From Eledone cirrhosa (Eukaryota): a stretch of 64,000 bases of DNA. The notes beneath the pieces were generated by a model that searched no databases, had not been told where the DNA came from, and was given only the letters and a program-made list of their open reading frames with translations. The stretch lies in NCBI GenBank assembly GCA_964016885.1, contig OZ024740.1:84258001-84322000 (forward strand). The letters run 5' to 3'. Both the position numbers and the translations under genes were made by a program. The number at the start of each line of letters is the position of its first letter. The first letter of the stretch is position 1. This document shows positions 487 to 35,600 of this stretch, one piece after another.

Positions 487-1818
487 TCCAGTGTCAGTGT
501 TGAACAAAAAGGTGACGTGGTTGCCTAAACAGGGAACGACGTAATTAGGGCTGTTTGTTTCTTTACAAACAAACAAACCGAGCATTATAATAAATGTTCG
601 GTAAACCGATACGTGCATATATATATGTGTGCATGTATGTATATATATACATACTACTGTACGTCTGTATACATATATGTATGTACGTATACATACATTT
701 AAGTAAGTGCCGTACTAAGAGTGAGAAATGAAATTTCGTTTCATTCTATTCCATTTATCGTTTTCGGTGTGCCCGGCCGACTGAACTCACTCGATATGCA
801 AATTAGGCTGCTCAGCCGTTAATATGCATAAGGAAAGTATATACTTTCAGACGTTCAACCATCTAGCAGGAAGGTATACGATGTTGACGATAGCTAAAAA
901 GCTTGAAACTAGTACATCGTTCCTGTGTCAGTGTTAAACAAAAAGGTGACGTGGTTGCCTAAACACTGTACGGCGTAATTCGGGCAGTTTGTTTGTTTAC
1001 AAACAAACAAACCGAGCATTATAATAAATGTTCGGTAAACCGATACGTGCATATATATATGTGTGCATGTATGTATATATATACATACTACTGTACGTCT
1101 GTATACATATATGTACGTATACATACATTTAAGTGCCGTACTAAGAGTGAGAAATGAAATTTCGTTTCATTCTATTCCATTTATCGTTTTCGGTGTGCCC
1201 GGCCCACTGAACTCACTCGATATGCAAATTAGGCTGCTCAGCCGTTAATATGCATAAGGAAAGTATATACTTTCAGACGTTCAACCATCTGGCAGGAAGG
1301 TATATGATGCTAACGATAGGTAATAAGCTTGAAACTAGTACATTGTTCCTGTGTCAGTGTTAAACAAAAAGGAGATGTGGTTGCCTAAACACTGTACGGC
1401 GTAATTGGGCTGTTTGTTTGTTTACAAACCAACAAACCGAGCATTATAATAAATGTTCGGTAAACCGATACGTGCATATATATATGTGTGTGCATGTATG
1501 TATATATATACATACTACTGAACGTCTATAGGTATATATGTATGTACGTATACATACATACATACATACATACATACATACATACATACATACATACATA
1601 CATACATACATACATACATACATACATACATACATACATTTAAGTAAGTGCCTTACTAAGAGTGAGAAATGAAATTTCGTTTCATTCTATTCCATTTATC
1701 GTTTTCGGTGTGCCCGACCGACTGAACTCACTCGATATGCAAATTAGGCTTCTCAGCCGTTAATATCCATAAGGAAAGTATGTACTTTCAGACGTTAAAC
1801 CATCTGGCAGGAAGGTAT

Positions 1819-1861
1819 ACGATGCTGACGATAGCTAATAAGCTTGAAACTAGTACATCGT
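1819..1861 (+). ncRNA. Minimal type I hammerhead ribozyme (family A, intact CTGACGA core)
   Basis: acgatg-CTGACGA-tagctaataagctt-GAAA-ctag-TA-catcgt. Confidence 0.9.
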
Positions 1862-2240
1862 TGATGTGTCAGTGTTGAACAAAAAGGTGACGTGGTTGCC
1901 TAAACACTGTACGGCGTAATTCGGGCTGTTTGTTTACAAACAAACAAACCGAGCATCATAATAAATGTTCGGTAAATCGATACGTGCATATATATACGTG
2001 TGCATGTATGTATATATATATACATACTACTGTACGTCTGTATACATATATGTATGTACGTATACATACATACATACTTGCATTTATATATATATATATA
2101 TATATATATATATATATATATATATATATATATATATATATATATATATATATATATATATATTTATATATATGAATATATAAATAAATTAATAAAAATA
2201 ATGAATAAAAACAAAGAAACAGTTCCTTATATTAAAAAAT

Positions 2241-2380
2241 TCATCATTTTACGATCGTTTCTAGGATAAATATGTGCGTGTTTTGGTATGTATATTATAT
2301 AGATGTATGTAAAATGTTTACAAACTATCAGAGGGAATATACAAACCTACACATATATATGCTGTCTTCACAAATAATGA
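2241..2380 (-). ncRNA. Type I HHR with long helix II in PLE 3' pLTR (C3 position is G)
   Basis: Minus strand: tcattattt-GTGAAGA-[about 100 nt foldback]-GAAA-cgatcg-TA-aaatgatga; 9-bp helix I, palindromic helix III. Confidence 0.6.
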
Positions 2381-3109
2381 TATTTGTTTATTGAAAAAAA
2401 CCAACAAAGATTTAATATAATAGGTCTGTTTGGGAACAGGTTTTGAATTGACCAATAGAAAGGTAGTAAGTGGTCAAGATGATACAATAGTAGTAATTGA
2501 ATTTTTATTTAGGGGTAGAGGAAAGCAGATTTCAGTTTTGAATGGAAAGAGTATTTTGAATGAAAAGATTACTTTGGGATGAAAATAGGTCAAACCGGTG
2601 AAAAATAGACGAAAATTTGATGTTATAAAAGAATATTGCTAGTGTTAAAATCTAAGGAGAATAAAATTTTACGATAAATGTGTTAGTGAAAAATATCAAT
2701 CTTGTTTAAAACATAAGGAATTTACATCAATAAAAAGAAAATAAATTAATTTAATTGATAGGTATATTTATATTGATAAATTTATATTAATTCATATAGA
2801 TATGATAAATAAGAGTTAGATGTATTTGAAAAAACTTGTTAAAAGCGAAGGAAAAAAAATATAATAATAATAATAATTGGGGGGGGGGATAAATGTATTA
2901 GTGAGAAATAACAAATTTATATAGATTACAAGGAATATAGATTCATAACCTGAAATTAAAATAGTTTATATGTATACTTATTGGTATAAATTTTAGGAAA
3001 AGATAGCTGAAAAGGGAAATAAAATTATGCAGTTCATTAGTAGTAGAATATTAATTATAGGTTAACTAATTTTAAAAAAATGTTATTATAATAATTTGTA
3101 AAGTGTATA

Positions 3110-31940: not shown

Positions 31941-32041
31941 TCACTCGGATGAACCTGTAGTAACTGCACGTTACATTCCCTATATATATATATATATATT
32001 TATTTATTATTATTATGTAATAAACAACATAAGGCAATTGT

Positions 32042-32099
32042 TCCATTTACCAGTGGTTTCTTAAAAGCAAAAGGTTTTGCTTTCAATCCTCAGAATGAA
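32042..32099 (-). ncRNA. Type I hammerhead ribozyme in a about 150-bp solo insert in (TA)n
   Basis: Minus: ttcatt-CTGAGGA-ttgaaagcaaa-acct-tttgcttttaa-GAAA-ccactgg-TA-aatgga. Confidence 0.85.
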
Positions 32100-32651
32100 A
32101 AAATCCTGGTTTGTTTATTGAATTTGGATTACAAAAACAAAAATGCAATCTATGTATATATATATATATATATATATATATATATATATATATATATATA
32201 TATATATATATATATATATATATATATATATATATATATAGATGTATATATATATATGTATATATATATATGTATATATATATATATATATATATATATA
32301 TATATGTATATATATATATATATATATAGATGTATATATATATATGTATATATATATATGTATATATATATATATATATATATATATATATATGTATATA
32401 TATATATATATATATATATATATATATATATATATATATATATATGTATATATATATATATGTATATATATGTATATATATATATATATATATATATATA
32501 TATATATACATATATGTATATATATGTATATATATATATATATATATATATATATGTATATATATGTATATATATATATATATATATATGTATATATATA
32601 TATATATATATATATATATATATATATATATATATATATATATATATATAT

Positions 32652-35600
32652 AATTAAGTTAAAAATGTACATCCACATATGTATACTGAAATACTAGTAT
32701 GCATATGAATACACACACGTATACATATGTAGATGTACCAAGTTTTTCACTGGTCACTTTACCGTGAGTGTCCAGCTATTCTGTATGTAAACACACAGAC
32801 AAACCGGTTTTTAGAGTCATACTGGTTTTTGGGGAAACACCTTTCCTCTATTCTCCAGAAAGCCAGACAAGGAATATTGAACTAGTTTCGTTGTTGTTAC
32901 AACTCATCAGCAATATTTACCTATCTTCCGGCCTTTCTGGAGAATCGTAAAAGCACATATCGTTATATGCTTTTTCTATGAAAATTAGTAGTGGGCAGAC
33001 TAATTTGCATAGAGTGTGAGTACGTACCGGTTCAACGGAGACGATAAAAACAAATAACGAAACGAAATTAAATTTCGTTTCGTTTGTAACTCACTTTTGT
33101 ATGACTGACGCTTAAACAATTAAGTTAAAAATGTACATCCACATATGTATACTGAAATACTAGTATGCATATGAATACACACACGTATACATATGTAGAT
33201 GTACCAAGTTTTTCACTGGTCACTTTACTGTGAGTGTCCAGCTATTCTGTATGTAAACACACAGACAAACCGGTTTTTAGAGTCATACTGGTTTTGGGGG
33301 AAACACCTTTCCTCTATTTTCCAGAAAGCCAGACAAGGAATATTGAACTAGTTTCGTTGTTGTTACAACTCATCAGCAATATTTACCTATCTTCCGGCCT
33401 TTCTGGAGAATCGTAAAAGCACATATCGTTATATGCTTTTTCTATGAAAATTAGTAGTGGGCAGACTAATTTGCATAGAGTGTGAGTACGTACCGGTTCA
33501 ACGGAGACGATAAAAACAAATAACGAAACGAAATTAAATTTCGTTTCGTTTGTAACTCACTTTTGTATGACTGACGCTTAAACAATTAAGTTAAAAATGT
33601 ACATCCACATATGTATACTGAAATACTAGTATGCATATGAATACACACACGTATACATATGTAGATGTACCAAGTTTTTCACTGGTCACTTTACCGTGAG
33701 TGTCCAGCTATTCTGTATGTAAACACACAGACAAACCGGTTTTTAGAGTCATACTGGTTTTGGGGGAAACACCTTTCCTCTATTCTCCAGAAAGCCAGAC
33801 AAGGAATATTGAACTAGTTTCGTTGTTGTTACAACTCATCAGCAATATTTACCTATCTTCCGGCCTTTCTGGAGAATCGTAAAATCACATATCGTTATAT
33901 GCTTTTTCTATGAAAATTAGTAGTGGGCAGACTAATTTGCATAGAGTGTGAGTACGTACCGGTTCAACGGAGACGATAAAAACAAATAACGAAACGAAAT
34001 TAAATTTCGTTTCGTTTGTAACTCACTTTTGTATGACTGACGCTTAAACAATTAAGTTAAAAATGTACATCCACATATGTATACTGAAATACTAGTATGC
34101 ATATGAATACACACACGTATACATATGTAGATGTACCAAGTTTTTCACTGGTCACTTTACTTTGAGTGTCCAGCTATTCTGTATGTAAACACACAGACAA
34201 ACCGGTTTTTAGAGTCATACTGGTTTTGGGGGAAACACCTTTCCTCTATTCTCCAGAAAGCCAGACAAGGAATATTGAACTAGTTTCGTTGTTGTTACAA
34301 CTCATCAGCAATATTTACCTATCTTCCGGTCATTCTGGAGAATCGTAAAAGCACATATCGTTATATGCTTTTTCTATGAAAATTAGTAGTGGGAAGACTA
34401 ATTTGCATAGAGTGTGAGTACGTACCGGTTCAACGGAGACGATAAAATCAAATAACGAAACGAAATTAAATTTCGTTTCGTTTGTAACTCACTTTTGTAT
34501 GACTGACGCTTAAACAATTAAGTTAAAAATGTACATCCACATATGTATACTGAAATACTAGTATGCATATGAATACACACACGTATACATATGTAGATGT
34601 ACCAAGTTTTTCACTGGTCACTTTACTGTGAGTGTCCAGCTATTCTGTATGTAAACACACAGACAAACCGGTTTTTAGAGTCATACTGGTTTTGGGGGAA
34701 ACACCTTTCCTCTATTTTCCAGAAAGCCAGACAAGGAATATTGAACTAGTTTCGTTGTTGTTACAACTCATCAGCAATATTTACCTATCTTCCGGCCTTT
34801 CTGGAGAATCGTAAAAGCACATATCGTTATATGCTTTTTCTATGAAAATTAGTAGTGGGAAGACTAATTTGCATAGAGTGTGAGTACGTACCGGTTCAAC
34901 GGAGACGATAAAAACAAATAACGAAATGAAATTAAATTTCGTTTCGTTTGTAACTCACTTTTGTATGACTGACGCTTAAACAATTAAGTTAAAAATGTAC
35001 ATCCACATATGTATACTGAAATACTAGTATGCATATGAATACACACACGTATACATATGTAGATGTACCAAGTTTTTCACTGGTCACTTTACTGTGAGTG
35101 TCCAGCTATTCTGTATGTAAACACACAGACAAACCGGTTTTTAGAGTCATACTGGTTTTGGGGGAAACACCTTTCCTCTATTCTCCAGAAAGCCAGACAA
35201 GGAATATTGAACTAGTTTCGTTGTTGTTACAACTCATCAGCAATATTTACCTATCTTCCGGCCTTTCTGGAGAATCGTAAAAGCACATATCGTTATATGC
35301 TTTTTCTATGAAAATTACTAGTGGGCAGACTAATTTGCATAGAGTGTGAGTACGTACCGGTTCAACGGAGACGATAAAAACAAATAACGAAACGAAATTA
35401 AATTTCGTTTCGTTTGTAACTCACTTTTGTATGACTGACGCTTAAACAATTAAGTTAAAAATGTACATCCACATATGTATACTGAAATACTAGTATGCAT
35501 ATGAATACACACACGTATACATATGTAGATGTACCAAGTTTTTCACTGGTCACTTTACTGTGAGTGTCCAGCTATTCTGTATGTAAACACACAGACAAAC

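What the first reader, a model, noticed from the sequence alone, without database searches (positions are those of the whole stretch)
751..33048. Retrozyme families A and B share a terminal hairpin, an end point and an octamer motif
Seen: A reads gaaatgaaatttcgtttc..TTTAT|CGTtttcgg..actcactcgatATGCAAATtaggctgc..taat(ttt)cata (about 725-840, octamer 796-803). B on the minus strand reads gaaacgaaatttaatttcgtttc..TTTAT|CGTctccg..actcacactctATGCAAATtagtctgc..taattttcata (octamer 33003-33010). Both join (AT)n at the same TTTAT position (e.g. 377, 35910, 49313, 51027, 55926, 63798), while the rest of the unit has diverged. Inference: a conserved cis module comprising an RT-recognition hairpin and a priming site complementary to nicked (TA)n. 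The octamer about 35 nt downstream is a known POU-factor site in snRNA promoters and may be part of an internal promoter.
Basis: partly seen in the sequence, partly recalled or inferred. Interest (0 to 1): 0.7.

Follow-up and report, generated by a model that had tools for sequence, protein, structure and literature searches.

The report
Ribozyme retroposons with two insertion ends
Two related, non-coding repeats with hammerhead-ribozyme motifs sit in TA microsatellites of an animal genome (probably an octopus-like mollusc), and their insertions end at two fixed sites around a predicted RNA fold, which likely marks where a Penelope-type retrotransposon enzyme starts copying them, while the octamer beside it may be a promoter but is untested.

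Summary
The shared hairpin, TTTAT end and octamer are at the stated coordinates. A and B are type I hammerhead tandem repeats (non-LTR retrozymes). Two points in the finding need correcting. (1) The rest of the unit has not diverged away: A and B align end to end at about 60% identity, with compensatory base changes inside and outside the module, so the module is shared by descent. (2) TTTAT is only one of two ends. All 4 inverted insertions pair it with a second homologous end about 55-75 nt upstream. This is the Penelope-like-element (PLE) 'tail', read by Frangieh 2024 as two reverse-transcription start sites, and other families in the window show it too. The end is non-random (5 of 6 independent events, p about 4e-4), but pairing to (TA)n is at most 3 nt, so RNA structure, not complementarity, likely picks the site. 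The octamer is the invariant 5' arm of a conserved hairpin. It is no more conserved than two other blocks, but it keeps a promoter-like octamer-TATA-initiator spacing (roughly 40% a promoter). No autonomous partner was found. This is a new member of a known kind, with testable mechanistic predictions.

The parts
375..433 (-). A insertion I1, short inverted arm ending at site 1 (TTTAT|(AT)n)
434..2086 (+). A insertion I1, tandem arm of about 3.6 units, ending at site 2
444..486 (+). Type I hammerhead of A: stem I, CUGAUGA core at 450-456, stem II, GAAA, palindromic CUAG stem III, predicted cleavage after 480
719..792 (+). A three-way-junction module: outer stem P1 (719-725 with 786-792) enclosing the AU-rich hairpin P2 (725-742), an unpaired U-rich linker ending in UUUAU, and hairpin P3
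   Evidence: predicted fold
754..758 (+). Site 1 (TTTAT): main insertion end, inferred RT start
795..830 (+). Hairpin P4: octamer ATGCAAAT (796-803) is the 5' arm; the 3' arm is an inverted 7/8 octamer match
834..868 (+). Hairpin P5 with TATA-like ATATA (839-843) and predicted start site at 868 (C|AGRARGG)
   Evidence: promoter role inferred, untested
6728..6890 (-). A insertion I2, about 155-nt fragment ending about 7 nt before site 1
32652..35838 (-). B tandem arm, 6.8 units of 466 bp (98.5-99.6% identical among six), ending at site 2 (32652)
32874..32916 (-). Type I hammerhead of B (core 32910-32904, predicted cleavage after 32880), inside a long extended stem I
   Evidence: (Rfam HH9 37.7 bits, below gathering 52)
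32979..33094 (-). B module P1-P4: TTTAT at 33048-33044, octamer at 33010-33003
35839..35910 (+). B short inverted arm, with template jumps, ending at site 1
48732..49314 (+). A insertion I3, 1.3 units, ending at site 1
50440..51027 (+). A copy I4, local duplicate of I3 including flanks
55926..58750 (.). A insertion I5: inverted arm (55926-56397, site 1) plus tandem arm (56383-58750, site 2)
63088..63798 (.). A insertion I6: inverted arm (63088-63376, site 2, with a jump) plus direct arm (63377-63798, site 1)

Best explanation
A and B are diverged subfamilies of one hammerhead-bearing tandem repeat (non-LTR retrozyme) whose insertions in (TA)n end at two fixed homologous sites; these ends likely record a Penelope-like-element (PLE) protein nicking both target strands and starting reverse transcription internally at two points set by a predicted RNA fold. 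Steps. Shown: hammerhead motifs, end-to-end homology, end positions, inverted two-arm structure. Predicted: the fold, with site 2 in the loop of a small hairpin and site 1 at the end of an unpaired U-rich linker in a three-way junction. Inferred: the PLE protein binds that fold. One nick primes at site 1 with at most 3 nt of pairing, the other at site 2 with 1-2 nt. The two cDNAs grow towards each other and join through microhomology, giving the inversion. The template is an uncleaved multimer or a circle, since arms run through the cleavage site and none stops at it. The octamer is a separate question. My best single guess (about 0.4) is that it acts in DNA as the upstream element of an internal Pol II promoter (octamer, 34-35 nt, TATA-like, 29-30 nt, start at 868 in A and 32938 in B) while also folding as an RNA stem.
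For: Hammerhead motifs with palindromic stem III in A and B. Whole-unit homology. Circles fold at z -6.7 to -10.3 with the same architecture. Of 46 helix pairs compared, 6-7 changed on both sides between A and B and 4 are unpaired in one family. Ends: 5 of 6 events at site 1; 4 of 4 inverted insertions have one site-1 end and one site-2 end, 61 nt apart in A (I5) and 74 in B. Offset ends of 34-120 nt in 14 of 20 hand-picked intervals (12 outside A/B), including a PLE with an RT ORF (18563-22409). Literature: PLE tail at one end, inverted 5' copy and (TA)n targets (PMC8557442); two internal RT start sites in a stem-loop, both strands cut and extended, unprocessed RNA as template (PMC11167929); PLEs proposed as retrozyme helpers (PMC7229834; bioRxiv 2026.07.22.740005). 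Promoter geometry is kept in 5 A copies and in B. The octamer arm never varies between families even where it is unpaired, and P4 has 0 of 13 two-sided changes.
Against: No autonomous PLE carrying the module was found: 0 of 11 other window families scored above shuffles, and the genome-contig scans gave 0 pattern hits and 3 loci without hammerhead or TA runs. Only 6 independent events, one of them B. 2 of 20 intervals showed no offset and 2 (C2, G1) were unresolved. I5 units alternate (a=c 99.8%, b=d 99.2%, a-b 98.0%), so some tandem copies may come from later duplication or a dimeric template. Folds are predictions; centroid structures of P1/P3 vary among A copies. Octamer: a 12-nt exact run arises with p 0.35 at this divergence, P1 also shows no two-sided change, the start-site motif was defined after the fact, and A has 10-38 TATAW matches per unit.
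Confidence: 0.72

Rival explanations
1. The octamer matters only as RNA: it is the 5' arm of hairpin P4, bound in a sequence-specific way by the PLE protein or a host protein, and its match to a POU site is coincidence.
For: It pairs with a conserved downstream arm in A and B. The whole unit is a chain of conserved hairpins. A shuffled unit holds an octamer about 3% of the time. Two site-1 arms stop within about 60 nt downstream of site 1, over P3-P4, as a bound protein might cause.
Against: P4 shows no two-sided change (0 of 13) whereas the other five helices show 6-7 of 33. The partner arm tolerates pair-breaking changes while the octamer arm does not.
Confidence: 0.35
2. The octamer block has no special role: it is shared by descent and happened to change slowly.
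For: p 0.35 for a run of 12 or more, and 0.16 for two runs of 11 or more, at 61% identity; other blocks are as conserved.
Against: p 0.019 if the octamer is taken as a pre-chosen motif; spacing to the TATA-like and start-like motifs is kept within 1 nt.
Confidence: 0.25
3. One reading: the site is chosen by complementarity of UUUAU to nicked (TA)n.
For: Sites 1 and 2 both allow 1-3 nt of pairing, and many ends in the window are T-rich.
Against: 20-22 tracts per unit offer 3 nt or more, some 10-25 nt, and are not used as the site-1 end. Poseidon initiation is reported at a site not homologous to the target.
Confidence: 0.12
4. The arrays are satellites grown in place by unequal crossover from PLE terminal fragments, not transposed as multimers; or another machinery (LINE, DNA-based) inserts them.
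For: Local amplification is proposed in bioRxiv 2026.07.22.740005. The alternating units of I5 and the I3/I4 duplication show that local duplication occurs.
Against: Three arrays (I1, I5, B) lie within a single two-ended, inverted insertion of PLE type. I1 units diverge about evenly (94-96.5%). No poly(A) tails. Local growth does not explain the fixed ends.
Confidence: 0.15

Closest known systems
Animal non-LTR retrozymes (Cervera and de la Pena 2020, PMC7229834: mussel, coral, axolotl)
   Same: Non-coding tandem units with a type I hammerhead, low GC, highly self-paired predicted circle, co-existing PLEs.
   Different: Units are 426-500 bp (the paper gives about 170-400 nt; Li et al. 51-972 bp). 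The parts I read do not describe insertion ends, inversions, (TA)n targeting or a promoter ('microsatellite' and 'octamer' 0 occurrences in the main text). Expression and cleavage are untested here.
Penelope-like element pLTR and 'tail' (Craig 2021 PMC8557442; Frangieh 2024 PMC11167929, Poseidon_Ac)
   Same: Inverted 5' copy, an extension at one end only, AT-rich or (TA)n target, two internal starts downstream of the hammerhead in structured RNA.
   Different: No ORF. Tail is about 55-75 nt rather than 30-40. Site 1 is in a U-rich linker rather than an AC-rich stem-loop, and lies 278-302 nt after the cleavage site rather than about 85-90.
Newt satellite 2 (Coats 1994; seen only as cited in PMC2220036 and PMC6765202)
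   Same: Hammerhead tandem repeat with an internal snRNA-type Pol II promoter. That this promoter includes an octamer is my recollection, not seen in any call.
   Different: Here the octamer lies about 72 nt from the predicted start with a TATA-like box between, closer to immunoglobulin-type geometry (recalled) than to the distal element of snRNA genes. No PSE was identified or tested.
L1 twin priming (recalled)
   Same: Two target nicks give an inverted two-arm insertion joined by microhomology.
   Different: Both starts are internal and fixed; no poly(A).

Membership tests
Non-LTR retrozyme | Tandem repeat with a type I hammerhead in at least two consecutive units | tested here: met
   B 7 of 7 motifs; A I5 has consecutive intact cores; two cores in I1 and those of I3/I4 are mutated
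Non-LTR retrozyme | No coding capacity, no LTR/PBS/PPT layout | tested here: met
   Stop-to-stop frames of 120 aa or more touching A/B are essentially TA-repeat read-throughs; units are head-to-tail
Non-LTR retrozyme | Highly self-paired monomer | tested here: met
   Circular MFE z -6.7 to -10.3, 64-68% paired
Non-LTR retrozyme | Self-cleavage and circular RNA in vivo | not testable with these tools
   Needs transcription assay, northern blot or RT-PCR
Rfam Hammerhead_HH9 (RF02275) | Score at or above gathering threshold 52 | tested here: not met
   B 37.7 bits, E 6e-6; A not among the 150 of 316 matches listed. The motif fits the minimal type I descriptor instead
PLE-mobilised insertion | Inverted 5' copy and one-sided tail | tested here: met
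   4 of 4 inverted A/B insertions have offset ends
PLE-mobilised insertion | AT-rich or (TA)n target | tested here: met
   All 6 events are flanked by (TA)n
PLE-mobilised insertion | Sequence homology to the pLTR of an autonomous PLE | tested here: inconclusive
   No match in 11 window families; the rest of the genome is unavailable
Autonomous PLE | RT plus GIY-YIG ORF | tested here: not met
   None in A or B
snRNA-type or octamer promoter | Octamer conserved beyond background | tested here: inconclusive
   p 0.019 a priori, 0.35 post hoc
snRNA-type or octamer promoter | Proximal sequence element | not tested
   No host PSE model available
snRNA-type or octamer promoter | Mapped start site and POU dependence | not testable with these tools
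   Needs CAGE or RACE, EMSA, reporter

The most novel reading that the evidence does not exclude
This retrozyme lineage is a self-contained cis cassette in which one stretch of about 200 nt is read twice. As DNA it is an octamer-TATA-initiator Pol II promoter firing just ahead of the hammerhead, echoing newt satellite 2 across phyla. As RNA it is a telomerase-like template domain (short alignment bases in an unpaired linker bounded by stems) that positions a dimeric PLE enzyme to start two cDNAs at once on one circular RNA, writing tandem arrays and inversions in a single event.
Probability: 0.2. Interest if true: 0.75.

Novelty: new member of a known kind. Interest (0 to 1): 0.45.

Why it matters
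How animal retrozymes are transcribed and inserted is open: the link to PLEs rests on co-occurrence, shared hammerheads and pLTR trees. Here the insertion ends carry the PLE signature directly, and they point to a defined RNA fold and two nucleotide-level start sites that can be tested in the existing in vitro PLE assay. The strict pairing of site 1 with site 2 suggests that the 'tail' reflects coordinated two-strand priming. A mapped octamer promoter would extend the newt satellite 2 precedent to an invertebrate. My eight literature searches found no description of retrozyme insertion ends or of an octamer in invertebrate retrozymes. The library lacks most subscription papers and Repbase/Dfam, so the family may already be catalogued.

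Tried and rejected
The Rfam scan was dominated by spurious miRNA hits on TA repeats; only B's hammerhead appeared, below threshold. The octamer count in the window (19 against 6.65 expected) is not evidence, because 17 of the 19 are repeat copies. A visual likeness between site 1 and the short end of the Neptune-like pLTR (22408) was rejected: score 27 against a shuffle maximum of 32. An octamer-like word in the family at 36199-37092 was treated as chance (score within shuffles). The genome contigs pattern scan gave 0. The protein scan gave 3 loci in one MAG with no hammerhead and no TA runs, and one octamer in about 25 kb. Pfam gave 1 weak GIY-YIG hit among 8 ORFs. The MAFFT alignment misplaced P1/P2 of B, so pairs were counted helix by helix from landmarks. 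That count depends on my choice of helices and leaves out stem II, P0, P3 and the long hairpin. A cleaved linear monomer as template was rejected: none of 9 arm starts listed lies at the cleavage site. One arm start (434) coincides with the predicted start site, 1 of 9, which is too weak to count. Coats 1994 is not held, the Cervera 2020 supplement was unreadable and bioRxiv supplements are closed, so octamers in mussel, coral, axolotl or Xenopus retrozymes stayed unchecked.
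Full report
Setting. The window is AT-rich animal DNA (15-39% GC per 2 kb) with 52 (TA)n tracts and several broken PLE ORFs. The RT fragment at 19903-20544 has its best named hits in octopods (62% identity, labelled Argonauta hians; also Octopus vulgaris), so a cephalopod host is likely but not established.

The observation. The quoted motifs and coordinates are right. 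A (426-500 bp) and B (466 bp) are tandem units with a type I hammerhead: 6-bp stem I, CUGAYGA core, short stem II, GAAA, palindromic CUAG stem III. Rfam sees B at 37.7 bits, below its cut-off. The six cited junctions all end at TTTAT in element sense. However, 49313 and 51027 are one duplicated insertion, and a further fragment at 6728 ends about 7 nt earlier. That leaves 5 of 6 independent events, p 3-4e-4 with 20 candidate sites and no hit in 400,000 trials with 430.

A and B are relatives throughout. Global alignment gives 60-61% identity, with scores of 252 and 274 against shuffled means of 50 and 56. By region, the octamer block (35-37 of 47) is matched by the long purine-pyrimidine hairpin (53-56 of 71, low complexity) and approached by the hammerhead core (20-22 of 32); most other regions are near 35-60%. 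Both units fold as circles into the same chain of hairpins (z -6.7 to -10.3). In six helices (46 pairs) compared by landmark, 34 pairs are identical, 1-2 change on one side, 6-7 on both sides, and 4 are unpaired in one family. So the statement that the rest has diverged fails, and the sharing needs no special explanation beyond descent under RNA-structure constraint.

The module. It sits in a predicted three-way junction closed by GUGAG pairing with the conserved CUCAC just before the octamer, followed by an unpaired U-rich linker that ends in UUUAU and by hairpin P3. The octamer is the 5' arm of the next hairpin, P4, whose 3' arm is an inverted 7/8 octamer match.

Two ends, not one. I1, I5, I6 and B are each made of two arms pointing outwards. 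In all four, one arm ends at TTTAT (site 1) and the other at an upstream site (site 2; 61 nt away in I5, 74 in B), in the loop of a small homologous hairpin. Of 20 intervals I picked by hand showed a 34-120 nt offset between their two ends on automatic alignment. Four did not align end to end (I1 and B were resolved by inspection, C2 and G1 were not), and 2 had no offset. This is the PLE tail: Craig 2021 describes a 30-40 bp extension often at one end, inverted 5' copies and (TA)n bias (passages). Frangieh 2024 shows in vitro that both strands are cut and extended, that RT starts at two internal sites not homologous to the target, that these bound the tail, and that uncleaved RNA is the main template (parts 1-2 of 4). 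Inference: a PLE protein, perhaps a dimer, primes one cDNA at each site from opposite target strands. Four of four mixed pairs is 1 in 16 under independent choice, which is suggestive only. Pairing with the target is at most 3 nt at site 1 and 1-2 nt at site 2, whereas each unit has 20-22 tracts of 3 nt or more; structure therefore explains the site better than complementarity. Arms cross the cleavage site and none of 9 listed arm starts lies at it, so the template is a circle or an uncleaved multimer. The alternating units of I5 warn that some repeats may be later duplications.

The octamer. For a promoter role: it is intact in both families (p 0.019 as a pre-chosen 8-mer), in 10 of 12 A copies and 7 of 7 B copies (the two variants are the I5 a/c pair). 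It never varies even where unpaired, and P4 has 0 of 13 two-sided changes. ATATA follows at 34-35 nt and C|AGRARGG 29-30 nt later in 5 A copies and in B; the latter occurs once per unit, and B has a single sense TATAW. Newt satellite 2, a hammerhead repeat, has an snRNA-type Pol II promoter (cited in passages of PMC2220036 and PMC6765202); its octamer is recalled, as the primary paper is not held. Against: a 12-nt exact run is expected with p 0.35, the motifs were chosen after inspection, spacing is often kept between homologues anyway, and no other hammerhead family in the window has an intact octamer (17 of 19 hits are in A/B). I put promoter at 0.4, RNA-only role at 0.35 and no role at 0.25.

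Partner. Candidates in the window are Neptune-type and Hydra-type fragments (labels from motifs described and from recall; no tree was built). None of 11 families tested shares the module, and the public scans were uninformative.

Comparison and verdict. It works like, and meets the sequence criteria of, an animal non-LTR retrozyme (PMC7229834: passages and parts 3-4 of 6; Li et al. preprint: parts 1-3 of 5; minimal hammerheads, PMC4209133: part 1 of 4). Its insertions work like PLE insertions. PMC6155905, PMC2377424 and PMC2837043 were seen as passages only. It is a new member of a known kind. The value lies in end-structure evidence for PLE mobilisation and in nucleotide-level predictions for RT starts and a transcription start. 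Interest 0.45.

Noticed in passing
window 13248-13456, 18563-22409, 38084-38193: pLTR family beside Neptune-type ORFs with a U3-A8 core hammerhead variant (UUGAAAA...GAAA CCGG UA), the covariation noted in PMC4209133; two ends 69 nt apart. A related copy at 52778-52896 has GCAA in place of GAAA.
   Followed up: partly
window 43073-47871 and 3208-5467: Two frameshifted PLEs of probable Hydra type (536-aa RT frame at 44742-46352 plus a GIY-YIG-like frame), with nested inverted arms and a (TTTATT)n tract; ends without offset.
   Followed up: partly
window 51693-52500, 60307-61121, 62590-62850: A further hammerhead-like family with a long stem II and an 8-nt palindromic stem III, with two end types 61-120 nt apart; possibly another retrozyme.
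   Followed up: partly
window 22599-22627, 41628-41650, 48276-48317, 55005-55032: Further hammerhead or hammerhead-like motifs in separate (TA)n-inserted families; none has an intact octamer.
   Followed up: partly
window 56488-58466: I5 units alternate (a like c, b like d): a higher-order repeat inside one insertion, from a dimeric template or later duplication. Its internal (TA)n lengths range from 25 to 77 nt.
   Followed up: partly
window 6887, 48732, 50440, 63376: Three independent arms begin at the 5' foot of the long purine-pyrimidine hairpin, a possible RT stop or second-strand entry point.
   Followed up: no
window 35838: The B tandem arm begins right at the CGT after site 1, as if it stopped where the other cDNA started; may be microhomology.
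   Followed up: no
window 8295-9770: A 93-bp tandem array (16 copies, 461-bp higher order) lies inside a two-ended inverted insertion spanning 7160-10206.
   Followed up: no
L001-L003: PLE-type RT fragments in contigs of a bacterial MAG, probably animal contamination.
   Followed up: partly
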